From assembly GCF_028641065.1 (NCBI RefSeq), contig NC_073377.1, positions 51,212,001 to 51,276,000 on the forward strand: a DNA stretch of 64,000 nucleotides, in the 5' to 3' direction. Shown one piece after another: positions 2,931 to 63,790 of the stretch; the stretch's first letter is position 1; each line of letters begins with the position of its first letter. Source of the stretch: Leucoraja erinacea. Taxonomy: Eukaryota. The notes below the pieces were generated by a model, which was not told where the DNA came from, searched no databases, and saw only the letters and a program-made list of their open reading frames with translations. Position numbers and translations under genes: made by a program.

Positions 2931-4356
2931 AAATGGTTCTACCTTTGTTTAAATTTGCTGTGTTGAATGTCATCTGCGATGCTTATTGATGAGGTGATTT
3001 CCTACAGTAACCTTAATTTAAACTCGCAAGAAAATTATGTCATACAATCTACAAACTTGCCATTTGGGAACAGGAGTAGGCCACTTGGCCCATCGAGATT
3101 CTCCATCATTCAATAAAACCATGGTTGGTTGGAATGTAACCTTAGCTCTGCATTCCAGTCTGCTTGTGGCAACATATCAGTCCCATGTCTATTAAGAATC
3201 AATCCAGATCTGCCTTAAACATATTCAAAGATTCTGCTTGCATTGGCCTTCGAGTATTTCTAATACTTGCTATTATTTGCTAACCTTTCCTTAGCAAACA
3301 ACGTGCCTATCCTGGGTATTAAGCAACTTTAACTCATCTGACATGGTGTTGCGAGCAAGAGGGCTTGGTGTAGAGTTGGAGGAATGCTGGATTAGCATAG
3401 ACGGGTAATTAATACAGACTAGGGGACTTACTCTGATACTTTGACCATTACAGTTTTAAACTGCAAAAGGCAAGGATATCAGCCCCAAGCTGTAAAAATG
3501 GATGAAAGACTCCAAAGACATTTAGACCGCAAGCCCAATTGTTGAATCATCGATGATAACCTTACACATCAACACCTGGAATGACCAAGAAACAGGGTTA
3601 GAAATACATAGATACATAGACTATAGGTGCAGTATGCCATTCGGCTCTTCGGGCTCTTCGAGCCAGGCGGGGTGGGGCAAGGGGGATGGGTTGAGGCCAC
3701 TTTGGGGGGGGGGGGGGGGTGGAAGAGAGGTGGTGGGGTGAAGGAGAGACGGAGAGAATGATCTTGGTGCTGAACTGGTCTTTGCCCACAACTCTCTGCA
3801 ATTACCCTACCAACCTACTGTATGTGTTTGTGAGGTGGGAGGAAACTGGAGCACCCAGATATACTGTATCCCATGCAGCCACAGGGGAAACATGCACACT
3901 CCATCTCCTTGTTGCCAAATCAATTATCCTACAAATTAAGCAAATTGGCTCGAGCTATAACCAAATTACATTAGAATCTATTTGCAATAGTATATATTTT
4001 CCTCTCTAATGTTATTTCCTGAAATATGTCTATAGGTTTTTCCATTTATGAAATTGTGTTTTTCCTAATTAAATGCTATTTTCCAGTCAACAGCTTATCC
4101 TCCCAATACAGGAGATAGTTTATTTAATGTAGTTTAGTCATGGTGCTTGCACAGATCCTAATAATTCCTAATAGTTCTAAGCCTTTGCAAATATCATCCT
4201 CGATATTAATATTTTGATCATTAATAACAATGCTAAAGAGCCAGAGGCCCATCTCCCATCACTGTGACCATCAAATAGAACCAGGTCTACCTTCAACCCT
4301 TCCTGCCAAAGTACTTACAATCCAGCACTACATGCAACCTGAACTATTGTCACTGG

Positions 4357-4572
4357 TAGACACAAAGTGCTGGAATAGCTCAGCGGGTCAGGCAGCATCT
4401 CTGGAGAAAAAGGATGGGTGACGTTTCAGGTCAGGCCACTTTGAAAGGGTCCTGAGCCGAAATGTCACTTATTCTTTTTCTCTGGAGTTGCTACCTGACC
4501 CATTGAGTTACTCCAACACTTTGTGTCTAACTTTGGTATAAACCAGCATATGCAGTTCTTTGTTGTCTACAC
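4357..4572. mobile_element. Penelope-type terminal module arranged as an inverted repeat
   Basis: GACACAAAGTGCTGGA..CTCAGCGGGTCAGGCAGC at left is mirrored by CTACCTGACCCATTGAG..CTCCAACACTTTGTGTC at right. Confidence 0.7.
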
Positions 4573-4574
4573 TA

Positions 4575-5236
4575 TTTCATAGCAAAAGGATTTGAGTATA
4601 GGAGTGGGAAGGTTGTACTACAGTTATACAGGGTCTTGGTGAGACCACACCTGGAGTATTGCGTACAGTTTTGGTCTCCTAATCTGAGGAATGGCATTCT
4701 TGCCATAGAGCGAGTACAGAGAAGGTTCACCAGACTGATTCCTGGGATGTCAGGACTTTCATATGAAGAAAGACTGGATAGACTCGGCTTATACTGGCTG
4801 GAATCTAGAAGATTGAGGGAGGATCTTATAGAAACTTACAAAATTCTTAAGGGGTTGGACAGGCTAGATGCAGGAAGATTGTTCCCGATGTTGGGGAAGT
4901 CCAGAACAAGGGGTCACAGTTTAAGGATAAGGGGGAAGTCTTTTAGGACGGAGATGAGAAAAACATTTTTCACACATCTCTGGAATGAATCTCTGGGTGA
5001 ATCTCTGGAATTATCTGCCACAGAAGGTAGTTGAGGCCAGTTAATTGGCTATATTTAAGAGGGAGTTAGATGTGGCCCTTGTGGCTAAGGGGATCAGGGG
5101 TTATGGAGAGAAGGCAGGTACAGGATACTGAGTTGGATGATCAGCCATGATCATATTGAATGGCGGTGCTGGCTCGAAGGGCCGAATGGCGTACTCCTGC
5201 ACCTATTTTCTATGTCTCTATGTTTCTATGTTTCTA
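4575..5236 (+). mobile_element. CR1 LINE 3' fragment, (TTTCTATG)n tail
   Basis: ORF 4636-5034 VRPHLEYCVQFWSP...RRFTRLIPG...RTRGHSLRI; 3' UTR and octamer tail. Confidence 0.95.
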
Positions 5237-5848
5237 GTGACCCCTGTATTTGATCTGCTGAAGAAGCCTTTCGTGAAGGACTTTGTCAAAAGCTGTTTGT
5301 CAGTGTACGCAATGTCCAATGGACATCACTGAGGTGAGACTTCCAATAAATAAACTATGTTTGTAAATATAACTTACTACTAATCCATTGTTAATGTTCC
5401 TAATATTCCCCACTTGATTCAAGCAATCAATTAATGCAAGTACAGTGATTTCTGTGAGCTTCTTCATTAATATTGGTGTCATTCTTTCCTCTTGGAGTGG
5501 AGGATAACCTACTACAACTCTAGTTCTGTGGGATCCGAGTAGCTGATGAGATTCATGCAAGTCCTGCAATTTCTATCCCAGGTAGAACATGAGTTACTTG
5601 AAGGATTGGTGCATATCTAGTTTGGGAGATGGTGACTTCCTTTTGCCATCTGTGCGATTCTGTGGGCTTTTGATGAATGGGATCGGTATCATTAATGCCA
5701 TTTCTTATGTTTCTTCTCCATTTTGAGCAGCCCTGGATAAGTCAGTGGGCCATTACATTTTATGCACCAATTAAAGATAAGCCAAGGATCGGAATACAAG
5801 GACTGACGCACATAGGAAACTGCCTTCATTTTCATAAGATAAAGATAC

Positions 5849-6258
5849 CTATATATCGGCAAGACCAAGTGCAGGCTCGGCAATCATTTCACTGAACATC
5901 TCCGCTCAGTCCGCCTAAACCTACCTGATCTCCCAGTTGCGAAACACTTTAACTCCCCCTCCTATTTCCACACTGACCTTTCTATCCTGGTCCTCCTCCA
6001 TTGTCAGAGTGAGGCCCAGCGCAAATTGGTGGAACAGCACCTCATATTTCATTTGGGAAGCTTACACCCCAGCATCATAAACATTGACCTCTAACTTCAA
6101 GTAACACTTGCTTTTCCTCTGCCCCCCCCCCCCCCCCCCCCCCTTCCCAGTTCTCTGACCAGTCTGATTGTCTCTGATTACATTTTATCTCTTTGTTGTT
6201 ACCTTATTTCTCCCAGCTAACAATTATCTATTCTATACTTTCCTTGATCTCTATTCCC
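5849..6258 (+). mobile_element. Penelope-like element, GIY-YIG endonuclease C-terminus and 3' region
   Basis: Translates YIGKTKCRLGNHFTEHLRSVRLNLPDLPVAKHFNS...EQHLIFHLGSLHP; appears to resume at ~6899-6925 and ~7694-7808 after two CR1 insertions. Confidence 0.8.
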
Positions 6259-6898
6259 TTGGTCTTTATAAATCAGAGCATTGAGTATAGAAGTTGGGAT
6301 GTAATGTTAAAATTGTACAAGGCATTGGTGAGGCCAATTCTGGAGTATGGTGTACAATTTTGGTCACCTAATTATAGGAAGGATGTCAACAAAATAGAGA
6401 GAGTATAGAGGAGATTTACTAGAATGTTGCCTGGGTTTCAGCAACTAAGTTACAGAGATAGGTTGAACAAGTTAGGGCTTTAGTCTTTGGAGCGCAGAAG
6501 GTTGAGCGGGGACTTGATAGAGGTCTTTAAAATGATGAGAGGGATAGACAGAGTTGACGTGGATAAGCTTTTCCCACAGAGAGTAGGGAAGATTCAAACA
6601 AGGGGACATGACTTGAGAATTAAGGGACAGAAGTTTAGGGGTAACATGAGGGGGAACTTCTTTACTCAGAGAGTGGTGGCTGTGTGGAATGAGCTTCCAG
6701 TGAAGGTGGTGGAGGCAGGTTCGTTTTTATCATTTAAAAATAAATTGGATAGTTATATGGACGGGAAAGGAATGGGGGGTTATGGTCTGAGTGCAGGTAT
6801 ATGGGACTAGGGGAGAATACGTGTTCGGCATGGACTAGAAGGGTCGAGATGGCCTGTTTCCGTGCTGTAATTGTTATATGGTTATATGGTTATATGGT
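6259..6898 (+). mobile_element. CR1 LINE 3' fragment, (ATATGGTT)n tail
   Basis: ORFs 6193-6408 and 6487-6810 (LVRPILEYGVQFWSP; TRGHDLRI..FFTQRVVAVWNELP); tail GTTATATGGTTATATGG. Confidence 0.95.
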
Positions 6899-6938
6899 CC
6901 TGTTTTCACACCTTATACTTACTTAAATACTTAAACCA

Positions 6939-7693
6939 GGAAGGCAGATCTCACCAGATATCTGTATGGTGTCAAGTTGGGAAAAGGGGAAGTACAACGG
7001 GATCTGGGGGTCCTTGTTCATCAGTCAATGAAGGTAAGCATGCAGGTACAGCAGGCAGTGAAGAAAGCGAACTTGGTCTTCATAACAAAAGGAGTTGAGT
7101 ATAGGAGCAAAGAGGTCCTTCTGCAGTTGTACAGGGCCCTAGTGAGACCACACTTGGAGTATTGTGTGCAGTTTTGGTCTCCAAATTTGAGGAAGGACAT
7201 TCATGCTGTTGAATGCGTGCACACAAGGTTAATTCCTGGAATGACAGGACTGTCATATGTTGAAAGAATGGAGCAGCTGGGCTTGAATACTCTGGAATTT
7301 ATTATTAGAGGAGATCTTATTGAAACATATAAGATTAATAAGGTTTTTGACACGCAAGAGGCAGGAAACATGTTCCCGATGTTGTGGGCAGAACCAGGGG
7401 CCACAGTTTAAGAATAAGGGGTAAGCTATTTAGAACGGAGGTGAGGAAAAACTTTTTCACACAGAGAGTTGTGAATCTGTGGAATTCTTTGCCTCAGAAG
7501 GCAGTGGAGGCCAATTTTCTGGATGCTTTCAGGAGAGAGTTAGATAGAGCTCTTAAAGATAGCGGAGTCAGGTGATATGGCTAGAAGGGAGGAACGGGGT
7601 ATTGATTGTGGATGATCAGCCATGATCATATTGAATGGCGGTGCTGGCTCAAAGGGCCGAATGGCCTACTCCTGCACCTATTGTCTATTGTCT
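6939..7693 (+). mobile_element. CR1 LINE 3' fragment, (CTATTGT)n tail
   Basis: ORF 6977-7411 QRDLGVLVH..LVRPHLEYCVQFWSP and ORF 7384-7575. Confidence 0.95.
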
Positions 7694-8829
7694 TATCTAT
7701 GTATATCCCCCTCCCCTGACATCAGTCTGAAGAAGGGTCTCGACCCGAAAATTCCTTCTCTCCAGAGATGCTGCCTGTCCCGCTACTCTAACATTTTATG
7801 TCTTCCTTAGATAAAAAACATACTCATTTATTAATTTTGTTTATATACGCAAAAAGCAGGAATAACTCAGCGGGTCATAGAAACATAGAAAACAGGTGCA
7901 GTAGGCCCTCCGAGCCAGCACTGCGATTCAATATGATCATGGCTGATCATCTGAAATTTGTACACTGCTTTTCCCCTATCCCTTGATTCCGTTAGCCCTA
8001 AAACCTAAATCTAACTCTCTCTTGAAAACATCCAGTGAATCGGCCTCCACTACCTTCTATGGCAGAGAATTCCACAGATTCACAACTCTCTGGGTGAAAA
8101 CGTTTTTCCTCATCTCAGTCCTAAATGGCCTTCCCCTTATTCTATAACTGTGATCCCTGGTTCTGGACTCTCTCAACATCGGCAACATTTTTCCTGCATC
8201 TAGCCAGTCCAATCCCTTAAGATCCTCTCTCATCCTAAATTCCAGTGAATACAAGCCCAGTCAATCAATTTTTTCATCATATGTTAGTTTGCCATCCCGA
8301 GAATTAACCTGGTGAACCTAAGCTGCACTCCCTCAATAGCAAGAATGTCCTTCCTTAATTTAGGAGACCAAAACTGTACACAATTCTCCAGGTGTGGTCT
8401 CAACAGGGCCATGTACTACTGCAGTAGGACCTCCTTGCTCCTAAACTCAAATCCTCTCGCTATGAAGGCCAACATGCCATTTGTATTCTTCACTGCCTGC
8501 TGTACCTGCATGCTTACTTTCAGTGACTGATGTACAAGGACACCCAGGTCTCGTTGCACCTCCCCTTTTCCTAATCGGACACATAGAAAATAATCTGAAT
8601 TGTACCATACAGATAATAATCTGCCTTCTTGTTCTTTCCACCAAAGTGGATAACCTCACATTAATCCACATTAAACTGCATCTGCCCCCTCACGCAACCT
8701 ATCCAAGTCATCCTGCAGCCTCATAGCATCTTCCTCGCAGCTCACGTTGTCTCCCAGCTTTGTGTCATCTACAAATTTGGGGATGTCACATTTAATTCCC
8801 CCGTCTAAATCGGTAATATATATTGTAAA

Positions 8830-10686
8830 CTAGACCAAGTGCAGACCCGTTGGGTCTGTTCCCCCAACGTGCGGTTGTTTGGGGGGGGGGGAGGCGGCAT
8901 GCAGCATCACACACTAACTATCCCCCCCCCCCCGCACTCACGCTAATTACCCCCTTGATATTATATTAATATTATTAATCTGCTCCTTTTAACCCATAAC
9001 CACCCTATCTACTGACGCATAGCCCCCAACTTGCAGTCACATCTAGAGGGGGGGGGGGGCGGGGGGGGTAGAGAGTGAGGGCAGAGAGAGAAGGGGCAGA
9101 GACAGAGAGAGAGACAGAGACACTGAGAGAGGGGCAAGAGGGATGGGGGTTGGAGAGGAGGATAAGAGGGAGGGTGGGTGAGGGGGGGAAAGGTGCTGCA
9201 CCATCGGAGGAGGGGGAGGAGAGAGAGAGAGAGGGTGAGTGACTGTTTACCCTCCTACCATCCGGGAGGCGCTAGGGGGAGAGAGAGTCTTCCCGGCGGC
9301 TGTCATCTACTCAACAACGGGGGTGCTGAGCCATTTCGTTGTCTCTGTACTGTCATGACAATGACAATTAAAATTGAATGAATCTGAATATAAATCTGAA
9401 GAGGGATAGGGGGGGTTAAGAGGGAGGGGGGGTAGGGGGTACAGGTGTAGGGGGGTGAGGTGGGGAGTAGGAAGGGTGAGGGGAGGGAGGGGGGGAGGGA
9501 AGAGGGGAGGGAAGAGGGTAGGGGGGTTGTGGAGGGGAGGGGAGGGGTTTAGGGAGGGAGGGAGGGAGGGGGGAGGGGATGGAGGGGAGGAGGGGAGAGA
9601 GGGGGAGGGGAGGGGGAGGAGGGAGAGGAGGGGTGGGGGGAAGGGGGGGAGAGAGGGGGGGGAGGGAGAGGGGGGGGAGCAGGGAGGGGGGGAGGAGGAG
9701 GGGTGGAGGGAAGGGGGGAGGGGTGTGGAGGGGAGGAGGGGAGTTTAGGGGAGGAATGGTGGGGGAGGGGAGTTAGGGGAGGGGAGAGGGGAGGGTGGGA
9801 GAGAGGGAGGGGAGGAGAGAGGGAGGGGGGGGGGGGGAGAGAGAGAGGGAGGGGGAGAGAGGGGGGGGGGAGAGGAGGGGGAGAGGAGTGGGGGGAGAGG
9901 GGNNNNNNNNNNNNNNNNNNNNNNNNNNNNNNNNNNNNNNNNNNNNNNNNNNNNNNNNNNNNNNNNNNNNNNNNNNNNNNNNNNNNNNNNNNNNNNNNNN
10001 NNNNNNNNNNNNNNNNNNNNNNNNNNNNNNNNNNNNNNNNNNNNNNNNNNNNGGAGGGGGGAGAGGAGGAGAGGGGGGGAGAGGAGAGGAGTAGAGAACA
10101 TCAGGGAGAGTGAGAGGGGGGGAGGGAGAGAGGGAGAGGGGGAGGAGTGGAGGGGGGGGGGGGGGAGGGGAAAGTCGGGGAGAACCTAAAAAACATTTTA
10201 GAAGCAAAAAAAATACAATCTGCAAGCATGGTAGAACCAAAAGAGACACTTTTTGCAAACATTTTAGAACCAATAAACACTTTTTGCAAATATTTCAGAA
10301 CCAATAGACACAATCTGCAAGTGTTTTAGAACCACTAAGGGCACTTACATTGGAGTAGACATGTGTTCAGTATTATTCACAGCTCAGAGAAACGTGACCC
10401 TCTGCCTTCATCCAGCTTGCAGACACTGATTGAGGCACACCACTTCCTGGTTTTATAGTCCCTCCCCCCTGCCGCCAGCAGGAGCAGCAGAGAGAATGGG
10501 GAATTTTGTAAAATCATTAATATCTCTGTCATTTTTAATGGACGGGAAAAATCCTCGGCACACATATGGCGGAGGGGGGCTCTGAGTAAGGTGGCCAAAT
10601 ATGACGGCCGTAGGTGGTGGCGTTCTCTTGGAAATCGCAGCACAGATGGCCAAAACCGGTCAAGAACAGACTTTTAGTAATATAGA
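8830..10686 (-). mobile_element. Non-autonomous Helitron
   Basis: Minus strand begins A|TCTATATTACTAAAA and ends with hairpin CAGACCC-AAC-GGGTCTG, then CACTTGGTCTAG|T; inserted between A and T with no TSD, cleanly splitting a CR1. Confidence 0.88.
9400..10172. repeat. G/A-rich homopurine tract including assembly gap 9903-10052
   Basis: Degenerate (GGGGAGA)n flanking an N run. Confidence 0.9.
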
Positions 10687-10970: not shown

Positions 10971-11270
10971 AAGAAGGGTCGGGCAACATCTCTGGAGAAA
11001 AAGAATAGGTGACATTTCGGGTCTGAATCCTTCATCAGACTGAAAGTGGAGGTGGGGGATGGGGGGGGTGGGGGCGAATAAACAATAAACTGGAGGTGTG
11101 AAAAGGCCAGAACAAATCAGAGCCAGCAACACATAAACTCAGGTGGGTAGCCTTTAATGGCCAATCGTTGGCTTAGAAAGGTGTAATAACAAGAGGGATG
11201 CAAGGATGGAAAGATTGGAAGTGGTAGAATGGCTAGGCTGGGAGAGAGAGGGGAGGGAAGAGAATGCAGG
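10971..11270 (-). mobile_element. Penelope-type 3' module
   Basis: Reverse complement contains CTGATGAAGGATTCAGACCCGAAATGTCACC and the pyrimidine-rich region seen in other copies. Confidence 0.6.
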
Positions 11271-13922: not shown

Positions 13923-14525
13923 GTTATATTAAATAAACAGCTACTTTAAATCTTTCTCATTTTAATTTATTTTTTTGCTATCTTCCAATATTCAGAATCC
14001 AGATAAAGTCTGACTCGCAGACTGCACCCCCACTGAAGCCTGTTCATAAAAGATGAAAACATTTATAACATCAATTCAACTGGAACTAATTTAATTTATT
14101 ATGGGCAGACTGTACATCGATCGCATAAAAGTGAAATAAAGTAATCACAGCAGAACATTGAAGGTGACCCTCAGCATAAGCAGCAGCGAGTCTTGGAGCC
14201 CAGTTACAGAAGAGTGTTATTGATTGCACTGCTTGTTGCACTGATAACAGTTGGTAAGAGTGCACATGTTTACATATCGGCAAATGCCATGCTATTTTGG
14301 TGCACATCACTGCCAGAACATGCATTCCATTGGATTCCTGCAGGAAGTGCATGTATGTAAGTGTTAGAGCGTCAAAAGGAAACGATGGCATTAAACTTCA
14401 AAGCCTTGTCAGCCATGAGCTTAAGGGGATCACAGAAGTTATTTGGAGCAAAGAATATCAATGGAGCAAAGACCATTGCAAAAACCGATCAAAAGTATTT
14501 CTCTGTGTAGGATGGATGTGCGGAT

Positions 14526-15080
14526 AGACACAAAATGCTGGAGCAAACTCAGCGGATGAGGCAGCATCTCTGGAGAGAAGGAGTGGGCGACGTTTCAGGT
14601 CGAGACCCTTCTTCAGACTCACCCGCTGAGTTGCTTCAGCATTTTGTGTGTACCTTCGATTTAAACCAGCATCTGCAGTTCTTTCTTACACATGGATCTG
14701 CAGATGCTGGTTTAAACTGAAGATAAACACAAAAAGCTGGAGAAAGGGTATTGGTGACGTTTTGTGTTGAGACCTGCCTTCAGACTGACAGTCAGGGGAA
14801 AGGGAAAGGAGAGATATAGATGGTGATATAGAGATATAGAACAAATGAATGAAAGATATACAAAAAAGTAATGATGATAAAGGGAACAGTCGATTGTTTG
14901 CTGTGGCCTAGGTTAAAAAGAGTTCCAGACAGCGAGACTCAACAAGACGGCTTTGAAGCGGCCCGAAGAAGGAGTGCGGGGCCAGCTAGTACAATGACTT
15001 GGTTGGGGGAGGGACGGAGAGAGAGGGGATGCATGGGTTACCTGAAGTTAAAGAAATCAATGTTCATACTGCTGAGTTGT
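14526..15080 (-). mobile_element. Nested Penelope-type modules
   Basis: Inverted module 14526-14691 flanked by ATGGATGTGCGGAT/ATGGATCTGCAGAT, sitting in the end of a longer minus-strand Penelope 3' fragment that reaches TCAATGTTCATAC. Confidence 0.7.
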
Positions 15081-18359: not shown

Positions 18360-19085
18360 AAGCCTTTCCCCTGACTCTCGTTCTGAAGAAGGGTCTCGAC
18401 CCAAAACGTCACCAATACTTTTCTCCAGAAATTCTGTCTGACCAGCAGAGTTATTCCAGCTTTTTGTCTCTATCTTTCGGTGTAAACCAGCATCTGCAGT
18501 TCTTTCCTACACAAGAAAGACACAAGGTGCTGGAATAACTCAGTGGGTCAGTCAGCATTTCTGGAGGACACGTATAGGCAACGTTTTGGGTCAGGACCAT
18601 TCTTCAGGCTGCTTGTAGTAGGGGAGAGAAAGTTGGATGAGAGATGGAGATAGGCCAAAGTGGGTGTGGACAGGTGAGGAGGAATGGAGTAGAGGTTGAT
18701 TGGACAAAAGCCAGAGAAGAAAAGACAAAAGCTGTGAGATAAGGAGATCACAAGCCAAGAGATGTGAAATGTGAAGCCAGAGGAAGGAATATAGGTGAAA
18801 GGGTACAAGGGAAGGGGAAGAATTGTGGAAGAAATAGTACAGGAAAGATAGGGGGAGAAAAAAGAGAGTGGATGGTTTTTGTTAGTTAGTTTTATAAAAT
18901 TGGGGAATTCAATGTTCATACTGTTAGGTTGTGAAAAAAAACAAGCAAAATTTAATATTCTGTTCCTCCAGTTTTTATGTGTGGCCTCACTCTGGCAATG
19001 GAGGGGGCCCAGGACAGAAAAGTCAGTATGGGAATGGGAGGGCAAGTTAAAATGGTTCGCAACTGGGGGATCTAGCAGGCTTTTG
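18360..19085. mobile_element. Two Penelope-type fragments tail to tail
   Basis: Plus module 18360-18512; minus fragment 18516-19085 with ORF 18548-19045 PSHSHTDFSVLGPLHCQSEA (GIY-YIG C-terminus). Confidence 0.75.
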
Positions 19086-23518: not shown

Positions 23519-24279
23519 ATGGAGCGGGAGTGAGAATTCCTGATGTAGGCAATACCTAGCCCTTCTCCATTCATTCCTACCAATGAGGTCAGTTGGAAAC
23601 CTTGGGATTAAATATTCTTCTTATCGAGTCCACACACAAGATTAGAAGTTGTTCAGCCAGAGCTGGACACACTTCTCGGCATCTGCATACAATGGTGTCT
23701 GTCTTGTGCTTATTGTGCGTGGTGGTGGAAAGATTGGTGGAAACAGGGCCGCAACATGAACGCCCTTTCCTTGACCCCGGGATTAAATCAAAACCTGACA
23801 TATTTAGGACATTGTGGGAAACAAGAGAATAAATTGTGGGCCACATGCAAAGATATTTGTATCATTCATAGACATGGGTGAGTTGCCAGAAGATTAGAGA
23901 GTGGCTAATGTTGTGTCTCTATATTTAAAAAAAAGCTTCAAGGAAAAGCTACATATACTATATAGGCCAGGAACTATAGACCAGGATCTACATGCATTTG
24001 TAAAGGCAAGGACTTGAATAGGTCTCAAGAAGATTGTTGAGAACATGAGATTTTGGCAACCTAATATAAACATGAGATCTGGGTTAGATCACAGATATTT
24101 CAGGGCAATTTTGCCAACCTAATATAAAATTAGCTTGAAGGTAGGAAGCAGAGGGTGTTGGTAAAATGTTTATTATAATTACAATAATTACATCATTATT
24201 TATATTAACAATTTGGATCTTCTTCTTCTTCTTCTTGCGAATGGAATATAAACCAAAGGAATAGTTAGATCCCAAGCTG

Positions 24280-35256: not shown

Positions 35257-36399
35257 TATCTTGACAACAATGCCTTGAGGCAGACAACAAAAACATTCAT
35301 ATCATCAGCCCGTGTTTTTATAGTTCCTTTGATAAACAGCGACATACCATCATATTTACAGGGTGATTACATGCAAATAACTTCTCCTTGCACATTGACA
35401 CATGCTATTTGCCAGCTGGGTTTCGATAGCACTTTTAGAGTACTTTCATGCATATCTGCAAGGGATACAGAAACTAGAGATTAAACCCACGTTTATCTGC
35501 TTCGGTGTAGTAGAAAGCATTCTCGCTTTATCTTAGGTTGGAGGTGCTGAGTCATCAGTTTCCTCAGAAGCACATACCAATCTTTTTCCCATATTGATAT
35601 TTTAATTGGTGCTTTTTAATTATGTTTTTGTGCTTGGTTCTGGTTTCAGGAGATTCCTTGCTTTCCGTAATCACAGCAGTTGATTAGCATTAACATTGTG
35701 GTTTGGTCTGCAGAATGAAGAGAGATTCAGTGCCCAACAGCATGAAACTTACTTCCCCCATTTTTACTTCACTAAAACACAGCAACTTGTCCACATTGCA
35801 TTATTATTTATAACAAATCAGTTTCCCTTTAAGTATATTTACAATATGTATAATGTTACAATATGTTTTTATTCATTTCATATGATCAGCCATGATCATA
35901 TTGAATGGCGGTGCAGGCTCGAAGGGCAAAATGGCCTACTCCTGCACCTATTTTCTATGTTTCTATGTTTCTATTTATCCATAGTCTGTAATCTTTTTTA
36001 TTAAACCTCCTGATGAGGGACTTTGGAGAATTCATATTTTTACTTGTACAGCTTTGTAAATGTCAAAGAATTGGGTTTGAGCAGCATTTGGGTATGAATC
36101 TCGTACACGTTTTACATGTATGAAGATGCGATGATCCTACAAATGGTAAATGTAAGCACAGATTGATATAAATTGTTTCCAGATGCAAGTGTTCAATAAT
36201 ATTGTGCAATGTATTGCAGTTGGTGGATTATTATAGCACAGAAGGATTAATTCACTAGCTCTGACCATAAGGGTAAAATCATTGAACTTCTTGCATATTG
36301 TATCAGGGCCCTGGGCCTGACCACTGACATTGACTACCTGGTCATCTGGACTCACTGAATTAGATGAGTGTCTGAAAGTCCTCATGAAACACAAAATAT

Positions 36400-40864: not shown

Positions 40865-41650
40865 ATAAAATCATAGAATGACACAGCCAATAGCAGGCCC
40901 TTCAACTAAACTCCTTCATGCCAACCAAGGTGCCCCATCTAAGCTCGCACAATTTGTTTGCATTTGCCCCATCTAAGATCACCCCATTTGCCTGCATTTG
41001 GCCCATATCCTTCTAATCCTTACCTATCCATGTCTACTCGAATGTCTCTAAATTGTTGTTATATACCTGCCTTAATTACTTCCTTTGACAGCTCGTTCCA
41101 CATATCCACCATACTCTGTGTGAAAGGGTTACTCCGCGAGATTCTATTAATTCTTTCCCCTCTCATCTTGTAGTTCTGCCCAATCTCTCCCTATTGCTCA
41201 ACCCAAGGAAGGTTGAACTTTACAAAATCATAAAGGATGTAGATTGGGTGGAGAAGGGTCTGAAGTATGAAGAAGGGTCTCGACCCAAAACGTTGCCTAC
41301 TTCTCTCCATAGATGCTGCCTCACCCGCTGAATTTCTCCAGCATTTTTTTGTCTACCTTCGATTTTTCCAGCATCTGCAGTTCTTTCTTAAATAGATTGG
41401 GTGGATGGTCACAGTCTTTTTTTATCAGGGTAGGGAATCTAAAACAAGATGACATAGGTGCAAGCTGAGAGGGGAAAGATTTAATAATAACCTGAGAGGC
41501 AAGCTTTTCATTCAGAGGGAGGTGGGTACATGGGATGAGCTACCAGAGGAAGAAGTAGCAGTAGAGTTTAATAACACTTGGACAGGTTCCTGGACAGGAG
41601 CAGTTTTGAGCAAATTGGGTGAAATGTTGGCAACTGGGACTAACTCAAGA
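40865..41650. mobile_element. Two CR1 3' ends (minus 40865-41175; plus 41205-41650)
   Basis: CR1 3' motifs in both orientations; the plus copy is interrupted at 41253-41392. Confidence 0.8.
41253..41392 (+). mobile_element. 140-bp Penelope-type solo module with 13-bp TSD
   Basis: TAGATTGGGTGGA at 41240-52 and 41393-405; contains TGAAGAAGGGTCTCGACCCAAAACGTT. Confidence 0.85.
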
Positions 41651-46399: not shown

Positions 46400-47165
46400 T
46401 GTGAACATAGAACAGCACAGGAACAGGTCCTCCAGCCCACAATATTTGTGCAAACCTGATGTTGAGTTAAACTAATCTCTTCTGCCTGCGCACTTTCTAA
46501 ATCCCTCCATTTCTTGCATATCCATGTACCTATCCAAAAGCCTCTTGAATGCCCCTATCAAATCTACCTCCACCACCACCCCTAGCAGATTCAATTCAAT
46601 TTATAATTGAAAATTGCACATTCCTGGTACCCACCGCCCTTTGTGGAAAATAAACTTGGACTGCACATCTCCTTTAAACTTTGTCCTCACCTTCAAGCTG
46701 TCCTTTAGTCTTTGACATTTCCACTCAGGGAAAAGTTTCTAACTGTCTACCCTATCTATGCCTCTCATAATTTGATATAGTTTTATAGCTAATACCTTCT
46801 AATCTAGGCGGCTTTCTGGTAAACCTCTTCAGCATAGAAACATAGAAATTAGGTGCAGGAGTAGGCCATTCGGCCCTTCGAGCCTGCACCGCCATTCAAT
46901 ATGATCATGGCTGATCATCCAACTCAGTATCCCGTACCTGCCTTCTCTCCATTCCCTCTGATCCCCTTAGCCACAAGGGCCACATCTAACTCCCTCTTAA
47001 ATATAGCCAATGAACTGGCCTCGACTACCCTCTGTGGCAGAGAGTTCCAGAGATTCACCACTCTCTGTGTGAAAAAAGTTCTGAAAAAAAAAAAAAAAAA
47101 AAGCATCCTCTCCAAAGTCTCCACATCCTGCAATGGGGTGAACAGAACCGCACACAATGTCTGCT
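46400..47165 (-). mobile_element. Old CR1 3' end containing a young CR1 3' end (46836-47101)
   Basis: Inner copy FFTQRVVNLWNSLPQRVVEAS with (TTTCTATG) tail, flanked by AGCAT at 46831-35 and 47102-06. Confidence 0.88.
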
Positions 47166-48849: not shown

Positions 48850-50180
48850 GTGAGAACACAATACGTCTGCAAAGCTAATGGATTAAGTGAGAGGGCATCA
48901 TTGATAGATGGAGTATAAAATGGGAAAGTCTGATATCATCAACTTTGGAAAGGATCGTGAAAAAAACAAATTATTATATAAATATACTGAGATTACAGAA
49001 TGTTGCATTACAAATGGAACTGAAGGTCTAGTGTATGAAACACAAGATGTTAGCATGCACTTTGCAGCAAGGAATTAGGAAGGTTGATGGAATATTCATA
49101 TTTATTGCAAGGGGTAAGATATAAAACAGTTGGAATGTTTTGTTGCAGCTTTACAGGGCACAGGGGAGATCACACATGGAGTATCATATAGGTTTGGTCT
49201 GAATATTTAGGGAAGGTTTTAACTGCATAGGAGGCCAGGTTCATTCTAAGGATAAAGGCGGTGATATATGAAGAGAAGATAGACACAGAAAGCTGGAGTA
49301 AGTCAGCGGGACAGGCAGCATCTCTGGAGAGAAGGAATGGGTGATGTTTTGGGAATGGGTGATGTTTTGGGTTGAGACCCTTCTTCAGACATACAGGTAT
49401 GAAGAGAAGGCGGAGAAACTCAGCGGTACTTGTGTACCTTCGATTCTCCAGCATCTGCAGTTCCTTCTTAAACACAGGTATGAAGAGAATTTGATCAGGT
49501 TGGACCATTACTCATTAAGAGTTTAGAGGAATGAGTGGTGATCTTTTTGAAACATAATATCCTGCAGGAATCTTTTCCTTGGAGGGGATATCTAGAACTG
49601 GGGGAGGAGTTTAGAGCAGTGAAAGTTTTGAGTAAGAGAGCATCGAAACAGACCCTTTGATCCTCCGAGTTCATGCCGACCATTGATCATCCGTTCACAT
49701 TGGTCCTGTGTTATCCCATTTTCTCATCCTCTGCCTACACACTGGGGAAAATGTACAGAGGCCAATTAACCTACAAACTCACACACCTTTGTCATGTAGG
49801 AGGGAACCGGAGCATCGGAGGAAACCCATGCTGTCATATGGAGAACATGCAAGCTGCACGTCAGACAGCATCCAACGTCAGGAACAAACCTGGGGCTCTG
49901 GCGCTGTGAGGCAGCAGCTCTATCAGCTATGCTACTGTACTGTCCTTCATTTTCTTAGAGGGTTATGGATCTTTGTAAATTTTTACAACAGAAACTGGAT
50001 TCATTGCAAATATTCAAGATGGAGATTAGCAAACATTTGAACATAAGGGAGTTGAGGGAGGCAGAGAGTGAGTGGAAAGTGGTGTCAGGACCATAGTTGA
50101 ATTAGCTATAATCGTATTTATAGTGGCACGGGCTTGAGAGGCTGACTGGCCTGCTCCTGATCCTACCTCATATGTCATCT
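48850..50180 (+). mobile_element. Very degenerate CR1 with a Penelope-type insertion (49279-49473) and a minus V-SINE (49615-49945)
   Basis: Residual GTTGCAGCTTTACAGGGCA..CACACATGGAGTAT..TGGTCT motifs; inserts match other copies in the window. Confidence 0.75.
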
Positions 50181-53640: not shown

Positions 53641-54319
53641 AGAAAATGAGTAAATTAAGAAAAACATCCAGCATAAAGCAGCTTGCTGCATTGCAGCCCA
53701 ATAATGATGCAGTGTTTGCAGCATTTTCAATTCAACGAAGGTTGGCACAGCTCTTGAGAGCTTCATCTCATCCAAAGCAGAAGCTACCCAGAAAGAGAAG
53801 GATTTGCATCACTCGGATACATAAACATCCACAAGGAATGTGCCAAACCATATAACTTTCTCACCTCAAAATATAGACATAACAGACTAGAATCTGGAAC
53901 AACGAAATAAGCTGCAAGAAGAACTGAATGGGTTGAACAGGGTTGGGGGCAAAGGGTTGGTCAATGTTGCGGTCAAAATCTTATGGCAGGCATGAGAGTG
54001 TGGAGGGGAGATTGCCAGTATAAAGAAGTAAGAAGAAGGGGTGAGGCGGGGGCTAGCAAGTGATGGGTAGAACCAGGTGAGGAGGGTAATGATGGGCAGA
54101 TAGAGCCATTGGAAAGGGGGAAGCTTGGAGCTGGGGGCTTGTGGCTGGTGAGTGATGGGTAGAGACTGATAAGGAGAGAGAAGAAAGGGGGAAAAAGGAG
54201 CCAGAGGGGCGGAAGGGGAGGAGGAAGGTGGAGAAAGAGGCTGGAAGGTGATTAGTGAAGACATTAGAGGTTACAAATTGGTTGAACCTGATAAGTAAGG
54301 AAGGTGATAAATGGAACCT

Positions 54320-55478
54320 CAACAAGGTTCTGCATGGTAGGCTGCTCTGGAAGGTTAGATCGCATGGGATCCAGGGAGAGATAGCTGAATATATAACAAA
54401 TTGGGTTATGTGGAAGGAAGCAGAGGGTGATGTGGAAGGTTGCTTCTCGGACTGGAGGCCTGTGATTAGTGGTATGCTTCAGGGTTCGGAGCTGGGCCCA
54501 TTACTGTTTGTCATCTACATCAATAATTTGGATGAGAACATACAGGGTATAATTAGCAAGTTTGCTGATGATACAAAAGTGGGTGGTTTTGCAAATAGTG
54601 AAGTTGGTTGTGAAAGATTGCAGCAGGATCTGGATCTATTGGCCAGCTGCACTGAGGAATGGATGATGTGATTTAATACAGAGATGTGTGAGGTGTTGCA
54701 TTTTGGGACGTCTAACAAGGGCGGGACCTACACAGTGAATGGTAGGCCTCTGGGGAGTGTTGTAGAGCAGAGGGATCTAGGAGTGCAGGTGCATGGTTCC
54801 TTGAAGGTTGAGTCGCAGGTAGATAAGGTGGTCAAAAAGGCTTTTGGCACATTGGCCTTCATCAGTCAGAGTATAAAGTATAGAAGTTGGGAGGTCATGT
54901 TGCAGTTCTATAAGACGTTGGTGAGACCACATTTAGAATATTGTGTTCAGTTCTGGGCACCAGGTTATAGGAAAGATATTGTCAAGCTTGAAAGGGTTCA
55001 GAGGAAAATTACGAGGATGTTGCCAGGACTAGAAGGTGTGAGCTATAGGGAGAGGTTGAGTAGGCTGGATCTCTATTTCTTGGAGTGCAGGAGAATGAGG
55101 GGTGATCTTATAGAGGTGTGTAAAATCATGAGAGAAATAGATTGGGTAGATGCACAGAGTCACTTTGCCAGAGTAGGGGAATTGAGGATCAGATGACCTA
55201 GGATCAAGGTGAAGGGGAAAAGATTTAAAAGGAATCTGAGTGATAACATTTTCACACAAAGGATGGTGGGTGTATGGAACAAGCTGCCAGAGGAGGTAGT
55301 TGAGGCAGAGACTATCCCAGTGTTTAACAAACAGTTAGACAGGTACATGGATTGGAAAGATTTGCAGGGATATGGACCAAGCGCAGGCAGGTGGGACAGG
55401 TTTAGCTGCGACATGTTGGCTGGTGTGGGCAAGTTGGGCTGAAGGGCCTCTTTGCACACAGTATTACTCTATGACTAT
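54320..55478 (+). mobile_element. CR1 LINE, RT domain to tail
   Basis: ORFs 54255-54671 ([26 protein letters not shown]), 54684-55196 and 55209-55442; same subfamily as 32970. Confidence 0.95.
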
Positions 55479-55517
55479 GAATCAGCTGGAAGAGAGATAT
55501 GGGTAAACAGAAGACAT

Positions 55518-55876
55518 GATTTGAGTATAGGAGCAGGGAGGTTCTACTGCAGTTGTACAGGGTCTTGGTGAGACCACACCTGGAGTATTGCGTACAGTTT
55601 TGGTCTCCAAATCTGAGGAAGGACATTATTGCCATAGAGGGAGTGCAGAGACGGTTCACCAGACTGATTCCTGGGATGTCAGGACTGTCTTATAAAGAAA
55701 GACTGGATAGACTTGGTTTATACTCTCTAGAATTTAGGAGATTGAGAGGGGATCATATAGAAACTTACAAAATTCTTAAGGGGTTGGACAGGCTAGATGC
55801 AGGAAGATTGTTCCCGATGTTAGGGAAGTCCAGGACAAGGGGTCACCGCTTCGGGGAAAAAGTTTTTTTTGGGGAA

Positions 55877-55908
<32 letters not shown>

Positions 55909-56252
55909 CTTTTTTTTTTTTTATTTCTTTTCTTTTTTTTTTTTATGTTTTTTTTTTTATTAATCTTTTAAGGAAAATCCTTTTAAAAGATGAAAGAACT
56001 TTTTCACACACAGAGAGTGGTGAATCTCTGGAACTCTCTGCCACAGAGGGTAGTTGAGGCCAGTTCATTGGCTATATTTAAGAGGGAGTTAGATGTGGCC
56101 CTTGTGGCTAAGGGGATCAGGGGGTATGGAGAGAAGGCAGGTACGGGATACTGAGTTGGATGATCAGCCATGATCATATTGAATGGCGGTGCAGGCTCGA
56201 AGGGCCGAATGGCCTACTCCTGCACCTAATTTCTATGTTTCTATGTTTCTAT
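55518..56252 (+). mobile_element. CR1 3' fragment, (TTTCTATG)n tail, with internal T-rich tract
   Basis: ORF 55553-55963; very similar to the 4575 copy except at 55847-55995. Confidence 0.93.
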
Positions 56253-56729
56253 ATAGTGTACGTTAGATAGGCAGATGGAAAAATGGAATCAAACTGTGTG
56301 GCGTGGGGATGGGTTGGGGTGAGAGTGGTGAAATAAAAAGGAGAGCTAAAGGAACACAAGGTGTGCAGGCTTCCAGAAATCAGAAAATATATTTTCCCTT
56401 TCTTTTATGGCTGGCTGCTGGTTTACAATATTGCTACTCTCCATAATGTAACCATGTCACAGTTCACTACTACAATGCTGTGGTAGCTCAGAAAAGTGGC
56501 TCCCTATCATTCTTAATCCTATAATGGATGAGCAATAAACGTTAACATTTCAGTATTGTCATGACTTCTGAATAACACCTAAACAGAATCCTCTCTCTCT
56601 CTGTCGTCTCACTCCCCTCCTGCATAAAATATGAAAGTTGGAACCAAATATTTGCATGAATGCAATCAAGACCAAAACTATACAACTGCTAATAATCATG
56701 TGCTTTGTCTTAGAACACAGAATATAAAA

Positions 56730-57951: not shown

Positions 57952-59800
57952 AGAAACATCGAAAATAAGTGCAGGAGGAGGCCATTCGGCCCTTCGAGCC
58001 AGCACCGCCATTCATTGTGATCATGGCTGATCGTCCGCTATCAATAACCCGTGCCTGCCTTCTCCCCATATCCCTTGACTCTACTACCCCTAGAGCTCTA
58101 TCTAACTCTCTCTTAAATCCATCCAGAGACTTTGCCTCCACTGCCCTCTGCGGCAGGGAATTCCATTAATTCACAACTCTCTGGGTGAAAAAGTTTTTTC
58201 TCACCTCAGTCTTAAATGACCGCCCCTTTATTCTAAGACTGTGGCCCCTGGTTCTGGACTCGCCCACCATTGACAACACCATACACCTCTGCACATCGAT
58301 GGAGCTGATGTGGAAAGGGTCAGCAGCATGAAGTTCTTAGGACTACATCTGTCTGATGACCTGACGTCCACGGCCAACACCACAGCTCTGGTCAAGAGAG
58401 CCCAGCAGCCACTTCACCCTCTCCGAAGTCTACGTAAAGCAGGCCTCCCCACTACACACCTACGGACTTTTTATAGGGGGACTGTCGAGAGCACACTGAC
58501 ATACGGCATCACTTCCTGGTTCGGGAGCTGCAAGGCGTACGAACGGCACCAACTGGACAGGATAGTGAAGACCGCAAGCAGGATTATTGGTGCTCCACTC
58601 CCCTTCCTGCTGGACATATACAGAAAGAGATGTATCAACAGAGCCATCTCCATCATCAAAGACCCCTACCACCCATCGCATGACATTTTCTCCATCCTCC
58701 CATCTGGGAAGAGGTACAGGAGCATTAGCTGCAAAACCAGCAGGATGCTCCTCAGCTTCTTCCCACAGGCTATAAGACTGTTAAATGGACTTTGTCCCCT
58801 GCCAAGTATCGCGCACTGTTGTGCCGCTGCCGGTCGGAACGGCTGTTGAATGTTTAGTAGAGTGTTAAATTTGTTCATGACATGTATTTTTTATTTTCAT
58901 TTCTATTTATTTTTTCATGCACACTGAATGGACACTGGTTGAGCAACGTTTTTTTGTTTCCTCTGGAATACTCAGGAAATGACAATAAAGATATACTATA
59001 CTATACTATTGGGAACATTTTTCCTGCATCTAGCTTGTCCAATCCTTTTATAATTTTATATGTTTCTATAAGATGCCCCCTCATCCTTCTAAACTCCAGT
59101 GAATACAAGCCTAGTCTTTTCAATCTTTCCTCATATGACTGTCCCGCCATCCCAGGGATCAACCTCGTGAACCTACGCTGCACTGCCTCAATCACAAGGA
59201 TGTCCTTCCTCAAATTAGGAGACCAAAACTGTACACAATACTGCAGATATGGTCTCACCAGAGCCCTATACAACTGTAGAAGAATCTCTTTACTCCTATA
59301 CTGAAATCCTCTTGTTATGAAGGCCAACATTCCATTAGCTTTCTTCACTGCCTGCTGTACCTGTAAGCCAACTTTCAGTGACCGGTGTACAAGGACACCC
59401 AGGTCTCGCTGCACCACCCCCTTACCTAACCTAACCCCATTGAGATAATAATCTGCCCCCTTGTTTTTGCCGCCAAAGTGGATAACCTCACATTCATCTA
59501 TATTATACTGCATCTGCCACGCATCTGCCCACTCACTCAACCTGTCCAGGACACCCTGCAACCTCCTGACTCCTCTTAACAGTTCACACTGCCACCCAGC
59601 TTTGTGTCATCCGCAAACTTGCTAGTGTTGCTCCTACTTCCCTTTTCCAAATCATTAATATATATGGTAAACAGTTGCGGCCCCAACACCGATCCTTGGG
59701 GCACTCCACTCGCCACTGCCTGCCATTCTGAAAAGGACCCGTTCACTCTTACTCTTTGCTTCCGGTCTGCCAACCAATATTCTATCCATGTCAGCACCCT
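57952..59800 (-). mobile_element. CR1 LINE RT to tail, split by a Rex1 insertion
   Basis: ORFs 59576-59797 ([29 protein letters not shown]), 59001-59561 and 57947-58141. Confidence 0.95.
58273..59007 (+). mobile_element. Rex1/Babar LINE 3' fragment, (CTATA)n tail
   Basis: Open frame 58310-58849 VERVSSMKFLGLHLSDDL..FYRGTVESTLTYGITSWFG..LPSGKRYRS..SFFPQAIRLLN; ATTG duplicated at both ends. Confidence 0.93.
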
Positions 59801-60825: not shown

Positions 60826-61274
60826 GATCACTCAGTGTCAATTACATATAGGATCTACACCATCATTTCACCAAAGTTTCAATTTGGCAGCATCTCCCAA
60901 ACCTGCTCTCCTTTCCATCTGCCAAGACAATCTCATTCATGCTGGGTCGAACCTAAGAACTCCCTACCCACAGTCTTGTAAAATTCACACGGAGCCAAAA
61001 GAAACTGCAGATGCTGGAATCTTGAGCAAAAAACAAAGTGCTGGAGGATCTCAAAGTCAAAGTCAAAGTCAAAACACACCAAAAAAAAAAAAGTCGATGG
61101 AATGGACAAACGAGTTTCGGGTCAACACCCTTCTTCAGACTCAGAATTCACATAGAGCAGGTTTTTTAAGAGGCAACTCATAACACACAGTGGGCGACAC
61201 AGTGGCGTAGGGTGTGGCACAGTGGCGTAACAATAGAGCTGCAGACTTAAAGTGGCAGAGACATGGGTTTGATC

Positions 61275-62040
61275 CTAACTTTCCCCTGCAACCACAGGAG
61301 TGTCAATACCTGTCCCTATACCTCCTCCTCGACTCTGTCCAAGGACCCCGTCAGTCTCATTTACTGCATCTGCTGTGGACCCCTAAATATCGGATAGATC
61401 GGTGATCATTTTGCTGAACACCTCTGCTCAGTCCACCTAAACCTACCTGATCTCTCAGTTGCTTAACACTTTGATTCCCCCTCCCATTCCCATACTGACC
61501 TTTCTGACCTGGGCCTCCTCCATTGGGGATGGTGACTGGACTTTGTGCCTTCCCTCATAATGGGAACCATTGTGGGGGGGGGTGTTTTTTATGTTTATTG
61601 TTAAATTCTTTAATGTTGTTGCTTATCTTTATCTGCGTGCTGCATGGCAAGACAAATTTCACTACACCAATTGGTGTATGTGACAATAAATGTCCTTTGT
61701 CCTTTGTCCATTGTCAGAGTGAGGTCCAGTGCAAATTGGAGGAACAGCACCTCATATTTTGCTTGGGCAGCTTACACTCCAGCGGTATGAACATCGAGTT
61801 TTCTAACCAAGTAACCCTTGTTTGTCCTCTATCTCCACCCTCCCTCTTCCTAGTTCTCCAATCAGTCTATCTGTCCCCTTCTCCTGTCTAACAATGATCT
61901 ATACATTGTGCTTGATTCTCATCCCCTTTGATGTCTCATTTTCACACCCAACACTTCATTATCTCTTTGTCTTCCCCTCCCCTGACTCTCAGTCTGAAGA
62001 AGTGTCACTACCTGAAACGTCACCCATCCCTTCTATCCAA
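61275..62040 (+). mobile_element. Penelope-like GIY-YIG and 3' fragment with a 181-bp insertion
   Basis: HFAEHLCSVHLNLPDLSVA..HCQSEVQCKLEEQHLIFCLGSLHSSGMNIEF; insert 61526-61706 has TCCATTG TSD and (TGTCCTT)n tail. Confidence 0.82.
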
Positions 62041-63237: not shown

Positions 63238-63790
63238 GGGGCATGATGGTGCAACGATATAGTTGCTGCATTACAGTGCCAGATACCCGGGTTCAATTTT
63301 CACACAGAGAGTTGTGAGTCTGTGAAATTCTCTGCCTCAGAGGGCAGTGGAGGCTGGTTCTCTGGATACTTTCAAGAGAGAGCTAGATAGGGCTCTTAAA
63401 GATAGTCTCTTAAAGAGTATGGGGATATGGGGAGAAGGCAGGGTGGGGTACTGATTGGGGATGATCAGCCATGATCACATTGAATGGTGGTGCTGGCTCG
63501 AAGGGCCGAATGGCCTACTCCTGCACCTATTGTCTATTGTCTATTGTGACTATGGGTGCCGTCTGTATGGAGTTTGTACATTCTCCCTGTGACCGCATGG
63601 GTTTTCTCCGAGTGCTCCGGTTTCCTCCCACACTCCAAAGACATACTGGTTTGTAGGATATTTGGCTTTATGAAAGATTGTAAATTGTTGTTTGCGTGTA
63701 GGATAGTGCAAGTGTATGGGGATATTTGGTCGGCATGGACTTGCTGGGCCGAAGGGCCTGTTTCGCCGCTATAAGTTTAAACTAAAGACT
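63238..63790 (+). mobile_element. V-SINE interrupted at its B-box by a CR1 3' end (63297-63546)
   Basis: CCCGGGTTCAAT|CR1 with (CTATTGT)n tail|TGACTATGGGTGCCGTCTG. Confidence 0.88.

What the first reader, a model, noticed from the sequence alone, without database searches (positions are those of the whole stretch)
14526..14691. Minimal hammerhead-ribozyme-like core in a family of tiny mobile modules
Seen: the motif AGT-CTGA(A/T)GA-AGGGTCTCGACC(C/T)-GAAAC-GTC recurs about a dozen times with varying decay (minus 14586-14619, 11008-11041, ~49360-49390, ~61113-61141; plus 7727-7750, 18383-18414, 41268-41297, 61992-62024). It has the CUGANGA box, a stem-loop, GAAA and a palindromic ACGT ending in GUC. 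Established: Penelope-like elements carry minimal type I hammerheads in their pseudo-LTRs. Inference: many copies here are 110-220 bp, have their own TSDs and no coding sequence, so they may be a non-autonomous, retrozyme-like family. Caveat: helix I (AGT/ACC) pairs only about 2 bp, so catalysis is uncertain.
Basis: partly seen in the sequence, partly recalled or inferred. Interest (0 to 1): 0.7.

Follow-up and report, generated by a model that had tools for sequence, protein, structure and literature searches.

The report
Penelope end copies carrying minimal hammerheads
These tiny repeats are end pieces of a known kind of jumping gene (a Penelope-like element) and carry its already described miniature self-cutting RNA motif; they were likely pasted in one by one as by-products of that element's copying rather than spreading as a family of their own, and a few were pasted in as short tandem arrays that may show how ribozyme satellites arise.

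Summary
The motif is real: 12 copies in the window, 193 per Mb in a random sample, 37,408 exact matches genome-wide. It is the minimal type I hammerhead in the terminal repeat (pLTR) of a Neptune-type Penelope-like element; 20 of 20 RT-bearing loci carry the same 3' end. The 166-bp module is two head-to-head pLTR arms in a 14-bp target duplication. A retrozyme master family is not supported: inversion junctions differ (48 of 51), five of six subfamilies have endonuclease-linked copies, copies do not start at the cut site, stem covariation is absent and the fold is unfavourable. Truncation is not random either: 141 of 205 copies reaching the ribozyme's front stop within 9 nt, and inverted pairs join one tailed and one untailed arm. 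Likely mechanism: the element's RT primes on both DNA nicks and runs off the RNA 5' end. Rare young TSD-flanked arrays (up to 14 units, 8 intact hammerheads) appear to be made at insertion by RT jumping. This scan reached the same basic reading on other windows of this genome. Known kind; modest mechanistic interest.

The parts
14526..14691 (.). Focal insertion: two head-to-head pLTR arms, 3' ends facing outward (166 bp)
14526..14619 (-). Arm 1: starts 3 nt before C3 of the hammerhead, ends at the short (untailed) pLTR end
14589..14616 (-). Minimal hammerhead core C3-C17: CUGAAGA, extra A, stem II 14608-14597 (4 pairs, first one G-U), GAAA, palindromic ACGU, C17; predicted cut between 14589 and 14588
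   Evidence: numbering from PMC4209133 and recall
14587..14618 (-). Helix I, 2 pairs only (14617-14618 with 14587-14588)
14618..14691 (+). Arm 2: 5'-truncated pLTR piece without the hammerhead, ending in the ~38-nt tail (about 14654-14691); 2-nt overlap with arm 1
14512..14525 (+). Left target-site duplication (14 bp)
   Evidence: 12 of 14 alike with the right copy
14692..14705 (+). Right target-site duplication; lies in the tail of the older neighbour copy
14694..14904 (-). Older, more decayed pLTR copy with upstream 3' UTR; its tail was the target, its last letters lie left of the insertion (about 14505-14525; inferred by eye)
7708..7803 (+). pLTR copy with core, helix I damaged
10976..11063 (-). 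pLTR copy, stem II 3/4
4355..4558 (.). Head-to-head pair, one short and one tailed arm
18384..18511 (+). pLTR copy with tail, GAAA box broken
18487..19074 (-). Longer copy: GIY-YIG C-terminal remnant (18893-19074), 3' UTR and pLTR (18487-18687)
41264..41393 (+). Solo tailed pLTR starting 3 nt before C3, 13-bp perfect TSD, both boxes broken
49279..49390 (-). pLTR copy with 12-bp TSD, GAAA box broken
60998..61141 (-). Decayed pLTR copy
61445..62040 (+). GIY-YIG C-terminal remnant, 3' UTR and hammerhead piece

Best explanation
The motif is the minimal hammerhead in the terminal repeat of a Neptune-type Penelope-like retrotransposon, and the tiny modules are likely dead by-products made separately at each site when that element's reverse transcriptase copies only the front 95-135 bases of its RNA. 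Shown: parent anatomy (RT, CX4CxxC linker, GIY-YIG, ~115-nt 3' UTR, hammerhead, short end, tail end, ATG 164 nt after C3), two fixed 3' ends, a pile-up of 5' ends just before C3, head-to-head pairing of one tailed and one untailed arm, 9-18-bp TSDs. Inferred: the protein nicks both strands about 14 nt apart, each 3'-OH primes inside the RNA at one of two sites, cDNA runs to an RNA 5' end just ahead of the ribozyme (probably a transcription start at the TCAGT initiator-like site), and the ends are joined by microhomology to the flank (solo) or to each other (inverted pair). Sometimes RT jumps back to the ORF-start part of the RNA and goes round again, giving permuted or tandem insertions. The template is mostly uncut; the ribozyme likely works only in the parent RNA with protein or dimer help, and not in dispersed copies such as this one.
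For: Parent: copies extend upstream into GIY-YIG and RT; RVT_1 E 7e-7 and GIY-YIG E 0.002 in one frame (GIY-YIG below Pfam's cut-off); all 20 RT loci fetched carry this family's 3' end on the sense strand about 1.3 kb downstream; 7 of 25 young loci show pLTR followed by the ORF start. Ends in 100 x 10 kb random stretches: 141 of 424 pieces start at -7..+1 from C3 (15.7 per nt against 3.2 downstream and 0.8 upstream; stop rate 11% per nt against 1.1% and 2.1%) (39 of 463 pieces starting at +85 or later were dropped as likely self-matches). Genome-wide, youngest subfamily: 24,385 exact cores, 16,055 keep 3 nt upstream, 13,471 keep 4, 6,748 keep 9. 3' ends are bimodal about 36 nt apart, the PLE tail; in the anole PLE the tail lies between two internal RT start sites and both strands are cut and extended (PMC11167929). 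Head-to-head 51, tail-to-tail 4; of 38 pairs with both arms classed, 24 long+short, 14 short+short, 0 long+long (P 0.003), and 13 of 14 TSD-supported pairs are long+short. 48 distinct junctions in 51 pairs. Cut site not enriched in the random sample (13 against 9.9, P 0.2). Hammerhead fold is 11.2 kcal/mol (focal arm) and 5.5 (young copy) above the MFE, stem II probability under 0.005; the whole module folds into one long hairpin. Jumps: 10 of 11 single loci and 8 of 9 loci picked as multi-hit restart at +189..+310 before a piece that ends at a normal pLTR end, most inside one TSD.
Against: No RNA start was seen: no pile-up of read ends, no excess G before AGT (31 of the first 100 non-C cases, near base composition), and the edge is a ~10-nt zone, not one base. 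None of 6 long elements that pass the upstream hammerhead stops in that zone, and 8 of 18 permuted insertions reach 10-225 nt further upstream, so many templates are read-through or circular RNA, not a capped monomer. Alignment ends are fuzzy and the C-rich tract upstream varies, which can inflate the edge. A purine before +28 (cut site) is twice as common as before a control site (498 against 251), 11 of 20 against 7 of 20 auto-classed as truncations (several of these are really deletions or local duplications), and one long copy starts exactly there (L164): some cut templates are not excluded. Remobilisation of solo copies was not directly excluded.
Confidence: 0.75

Rival explanations
1. 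A self-propagating non-autonomous retrozyme or SINE-like family: short copies are transcribed from the internal promoter, cut by the hammerhead and remobilised in trans.
For: Short copies outnumber endonuclease-linked ones (20 of 193 cores have the EN end within 450 nt); fixed 5' edge; own TSDs; Penelope has an internal promoter in its pLTR (PMC2377424 passages); TSD-flanked arrays with 2-8 intact hammerheads exist.
Against: 48 of 51 junctions differ; five of six subfamilies have EN-linked copies; close same-strand neighbours belong to different subfamilies (six cases read); no hammerhead array in 1 Mb; starts precede the core rather than follow the cut; array junctions differ between loci; the anole protein needs RNA beyond the tail, which solo copies lack.
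Confidence: 0.1
2. All short copies are ordinary 5' truncations of full-length cDNAs begun in the 3' pLTR; the edge is an RT stall at the C-rich tract or an alignment effect.
For: About a third of hammerhead-complete copies do run upstream; the tract is variable; the edge is fuzzy.
Against: Tenfold jump in stop rate, also seen with exact patterns in one young subfamily and at TSD-defined junctions; permuted insertions with 5' limits at -5..+6 also contain ORF-start sequence, so their template was the 5' end of an ORF-bearing RNA (L227, L229, L230, L236, L238); long elements cross the same tract without stopping.
Confidence: 0.12
3. The edge is a 3' splice site (pyrimidine tract, CTGAC, CAG) and short copies come from spliced RNA, as the D. 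virilis intron ends at helix I.
For: Sequence context; D. virilis precedent (PMC4209133).
Against: No shared leader before 97 solo short copies; the one frequent RNA leader is the contiguous genomic flank of a solo copy.
Confidence: 0.03

Closest known systems
Minimal type I hammerheads in pLTRs of metazoan PLEs (Cervera and De la Pena 2014, PMC4209133; parts 1-2 of 4 read, figures and supplements not seen)
   Same: CUGANGA and GAAA boxes, extra base between 9 and 10.1, G10.1-C11.1, palindromic 15.2-16.2 without helix III, place in pLTR, mostly single dispersed motifs tied to truncated PLEs, opposite-strand pairs.
   Different: Stem II only 4 bp (7-8 in schistosomes), helix I 2 bp (4-5 typical; 2 in D. 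virilis); copy number about 4 x 10^5 by extrapolation against 4,000-9,000 reported for coelacanth and Xenopus (different search methods); cartilaginous fish not named in the parts read.
EN+ PLE insertion architecture, Neptune/Nematis type (Craig et al. 2021 PMC8557442, passages; Arkhipova et al. 2013 PMC3846280, passages)
   Same: Partial tandems, inverted 5'-truncated pLTR, 30-40-bp tail at one end, TSD, microhomology joins, CX2-5CxxC linker, Inr-like site in pLTR.
   Different: Here the ORF-less double-arm and solo forms dominate, 5' ends pile up before the hammerhead, and short arrays include ORF-start sequence beyond the tail.
Anole Poseidon PAc in vitro (Frangieh et al. 2024, PMC11167929; parts 1-2 of 4 read)
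   Same: Two internal RT starts bounding the tail, both strands nicked and extended, uncut RNA as main template, no read ends at the cut site, ribozyme silent without protein.
   Different: PAc ORF starts inside the hammerhead; here ATG lies 164 nt after C3. Nothing here was tested biochemically.
Non-LTR retrozymes (Cervera and De la Pena 2020 PMC7229834, passages; Li et al. bioRxiv 10.64898/2026.07.22.740005, parts 1 and 3 of 5 and passages)
   Same: A few loci are tandem arrays of 209-290-bp units with complete hammerheads, which meets Li et al.'s working definition; PLE pLTR origin as they propose; they report one chondrichthyan with retrozymes.
   Different: The window's modules are not tandem; motif is minimal, not canonical; arrays are locus-specific, TSD-flanked and seem built at insertion, whereas Li et al. 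propose local amplification after insertion; no circles shown.

Membership tests
PLE minimal type I hammerhead | CUGANGA, stem II, GAAA, NUH in order | tested here: met
   (focal copy); 78 of 157 ungapped random cores keep the boxes
PLE minimal type I hammerhead | Unpaired base between 9 and 10.1; G10.1-C11.1; palindromic 15.2-16.2 | tested here: met
   A in 95%, G-C commonest pair (99 of 157), CG commonest (88 of 157); focal copy has G-U at 10.1/11.1
PLE minimal type I hammerhead | Located in pLTR of a PLE | tested here: met
PLE minimal type I hammerhead | Compensatory changes in stems | tested here: inconclusive
   Subfamilies differ only by one-sided U-A to U-G changes; pairs with two-sided change 4 against 3.5 shuffled (252/500); rows were pre-selected for intact boxes
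PLE minimal type I hammerhead | Self-cleavage (dimer or protein-assisted) | not testable with these tools
   Folding unfavourable; no read-end signal
EN+ Penelope-like element, Neptune/Nematis type (parent) | Single ORF with RT then C-terminal GIY-YIG | tested here: met
EN+ Penelope-like element, Neptune/Nematis type (parent) | CX2-5CxxC linker before GIY-YIG | tested here: met
   CX4CxxC; definition
EN+ Penelope-like element, Neptune/Nematis type (parent) | Partial tandem pLTR, inverted truncated copy, 30-40-bp tail | tested here: met
EN+ Penelope-like element, Neptune/Nematis type (parent) | RT phylogeny places it in Neptune rather than Nematis | not tested
   no named reference PLE proteins were fetched
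Non-LTR retrozyme (window modules) | Head-to-tail tandem units each with a hammerhead | tested here: not met
   Window units are solo or head-to-head; none in 1 Mb by TRF. Met only by rare arrays L221, L223, L225, L227 and part of L220
Non-LTR retrozyme (window modules) | Canonical type I hammerhead with 6-bp helix I and loop contacts | tested here: not met
   Third helix I pair is A-C in 96 of 157; no Rfam hit
Non-LTR retrozyme (window modules) | Amplified as a unit from a master copy | tested here: not met
   48 distinct junctions of 51; solo copies cannot be judged by junction
Non-LTR retrozyme (window modules) | Abundant circular monomer RNA | not testable with these tools
   Only oligo-dT and single-cell reads were at hand

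The most novel reading that the evidence does not exclude
The genome preserves the whole Penelope copying cycle: strong-stop-like run-off cDNAs from the RNA 5' end, two-site priming on both nicks, and repeated RT jumps (or small RNA circles) that build multi-hammerhead tandem arrays in one insertion event. This would be how pseudo-LTR tandems are regenerated and how animal retrozymes are born from PLEs.
Probability: 0.4. Interest if true: 0.62.

Novelty: new member of a known kind. Interest (0 to 1): 0.36.

Why it matters
The ribozyme motif and its host element are known kinds, and dispersed copies likely do not cut host RNA. [quoted passage not shown] The TSD-flanked arrays make one proposal directly testable: that PLE RT itself produces retrozyme-like tandems at insertion.

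Tried and rejected
Rfam scan: no hammerhead family up to E=5. Pfam on two window EN remnants: nothing. Cap-G signature: not seen. Spliced leader: not seen. Cut-site starts: not enriched in the random sample; weak, confounded excess against a single control site genome-wide. Covariation: no two-sided signal. Dimer fold inside natural arrays is 11-13 kcal/mol above the MFE (helix I not enforced). Sequencing-run search: no RNA holder listed, and the query was by my slip a stretch of the ORF body, not the pLTR; the first read lay on that stretch gave mainly poly-G artefacts. Second lay (four raw RNA runs of one species label, 2 studies): depth of thousands over the pLTR against tens outside, both directions, no drop at the cut site, no pile-up of ends; this fits passive transcription of dispersed copies and does not test cleavage. 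A genome-wide search for tandem hammerheads could not be run, so array frequency rests on TRF of 1 Mb (0 arrays; one 52-bp duplication without the core) and on the first 100 of 162 matches. In one search one of 25 loci (L185) was wrongly oriented and is left out. Literature searches listed no paper on this family in cartilaginous fish or on strong-stop or jump-built arrays in PLEs; subscription papers, Repbase and unseen supplements (PMC4209133, the 2026 preprint) may cover it. Lunse et al. 2017 on dimeric PLE hammerheads is recalled only.

Full report
Numbering: positions are given from C3 of the hammerhead (=0); the predicted cut lies between +27 and +28.

1. Observation. The motif is at all listed places: 12 cores in the window, 0 in reversed DNA. 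The focal module is two pLTR arms head to head: minus arm 14526-14619 from -3 to the short end, plus arm 14618-14691 from +56 to the tailed end. It sits in a 14-bp duplication (12 of 14 alike) inside the tail of an older copy (14694-14904). Only this copy of the 12 has a complete motif, with G-U in place of G10.1-C11.1. Rfam does not detect it.

2. Parent. Genome hits continue upstream into a GIY-YIG C-terminus and RT motifs. An RT piece has 11,144 first-look candidates, 150 scored. All 20 long-frame RT loci fetched carry the family's 3' end in sense; frames hold RVT_1 and GIY-YIG with a CX4CxxC linker, the mark of Neptune and Nematis. Young loci show the partial tandem: stop codon, about 115 nt C-rich UTR, hammerhead, short end near +93, tail end near +130, ATG at +164 (7 of 25 loci). 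That the host is a skate-type fish comes from earlier scan notes and recall, not from a test here.

3. Census. In 100 stretches of 10 kb at round coordinates on contigs 1-24: 193 cores (0 reversed), 338 insertion units. Exact 31-nt intact pattern: 37,408 in the genome, control 0. 30 of 157 ungapped cores are fully intact. 3' ends fall in two peaks about 36 nt apart. 5' ends: 141 of 424 at -7..+1; of 205 pieces reaching the front of the core, 141 stop there and 23 pass -60. Exact counts in the youngest subfamily agree: 24,385, 16,055, 13,471, 6,748 for 0, 3, 4, 9 nt upstream; point mutation explains only part of this loss (inference). TSD-defined solos mostly start between -7 and +5, often with microhomology to the TSD. 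The cut site is not a peak, with a weak contrary hint. Head-to-head pairs 51, tail-to-tail 4; junctions 48 distinct of 51; tailed plus untailed arm in 13 of 14 TSD-supported pairs, never two tails in 38.

4. Arrays. A 35-mer spanning tail end and ORF leader has 162 matches. Of 13 single loci first mapped, 10 end at +196..+310 and 3 are long elements. Of 20 further stretches (9 chosen as multi-hit, 11 next singles), 18 are permuted or tandem: a piece ending at +189..+310 precedes a piece that starts between -225 and +42 and ends at a normal pLTR end. The same junction recurs within an insertion and differs between loci; two long arrays (14 pieces at C1:24.09 Mb, 12 motif copies at C9:41.12 Mb) mix junction types, which fits repeated jumps better than one circle, though later local duplication may add units. 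Matching flanks are visible for L221, L222, L224, L227, L230, L236, L237; intact hammerheads number 8 in L221, 3 in L220, 2 each in L223, L225, L227.

5. Ribozyme. Sequence features match PLE minimal hammerheads. Subfamily changes keep pairing but on one side only. A competing purine-pyrimidine hairpin buries the core in the focal and young copies; in the focal module the arms form a -68.8 kcal/mol hairpin. Published minimal motifs show no monomer and low dimer activity; the anole one needs protein and is dispensable for insertion; 8 of 9 Xenopus dimers did not cleave. RNA reads show no end at the cut.

6. Mechanism. Shown: anatomy and end statistics. Inferred, by analogy with PAc: double nick, two internal primings, run-off at an RNA 5' end just before the hammerhead, microhomology joining, occasional jump back to the ORF-start region. 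The 5' end is probably a transcription start (TCAGT is initiator-like; Penelope transcripts start in the upstream pLTR), but it was not seen in RNA, and long or permuted copies often cross it, so read-through or circular templates also exist.

7. Comparison and verdict. Member of PLE minimal hammerheads by sequence and place; catalysis untested. Works like ordinary PLE truncation and inversion pushed to an extreme; not a retrozyme by three tested features, except for rare arrays. Earlier scan notes on other windows of this genome reach the same main reading (seen after mine was formed; not independent support); the ORF-start arrays were not among the notes shown. Novelty: new member of a known kind. 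Interest 0.36; most novel reading 0.62 at probability 0.4.

Noticed in passing
G000:C1:24092476-24094948 (L220): 14-piece array, 100% alike, mostly units from +31 (3 nt after the predicted cut) to +208, mixed with units starting at -3 or -1.
   Followed up: partly
G000:C9:41121-41124 kb (L221): 3.5-kb TSD-flanked insertion of 250-290-bp units in two opposed halves with 8 intact hammerheads; best natural substrate for a dimer cleavage test.
   Followed up: partly
L234:1915-2271: Permuted insertion whose two pieces are separated by 65 nt that look like another subfamily's 3' UTR; possible jump between RNAs of two subfamilies.
   Followed up: no
L164 (G000:C12:56.13 Mb): Near full-length young element whose 5' end falls exactly at the predicted cut site.
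   Followed up: partly
L188 (G000:C37:7.62 Mb): Solo copy starting at the A of AGT with a short TSD; its flank dominates loose read ends in two oligo-dT runs, so it probably lies in an abundant host transcript. A similar flank recurs 39 kb away (L189) inside a longer copy.
   Followed up: partly
runs X20 and X21: Single-cell reads cover the pLTR about four to five times more on the strand opposite to the hammerhead; may be internal oligo-dT priming.
   Followed up: no
window 4531-5034, 6935-7411, 54252-55963, 59001-59606 and others: Many decayed LINE RT fragments (CR1-like by recall); 58274-58849 is another LINE type.
   Followed up: no
window 5134-5223, 7609-7702, 35882-35967, 46833-46921, 56157-56254, 63449-63542: A second abundant short repeat with inverted halves, unrelated to the pLTR (LINE 3' end by recall).
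   Followed up: no
window 23727-23790 minus: Weak Rfam CPEB3 (HDV-like) match, 21.8 bits, E 0.28, below the gathering score.
   Followed up: no
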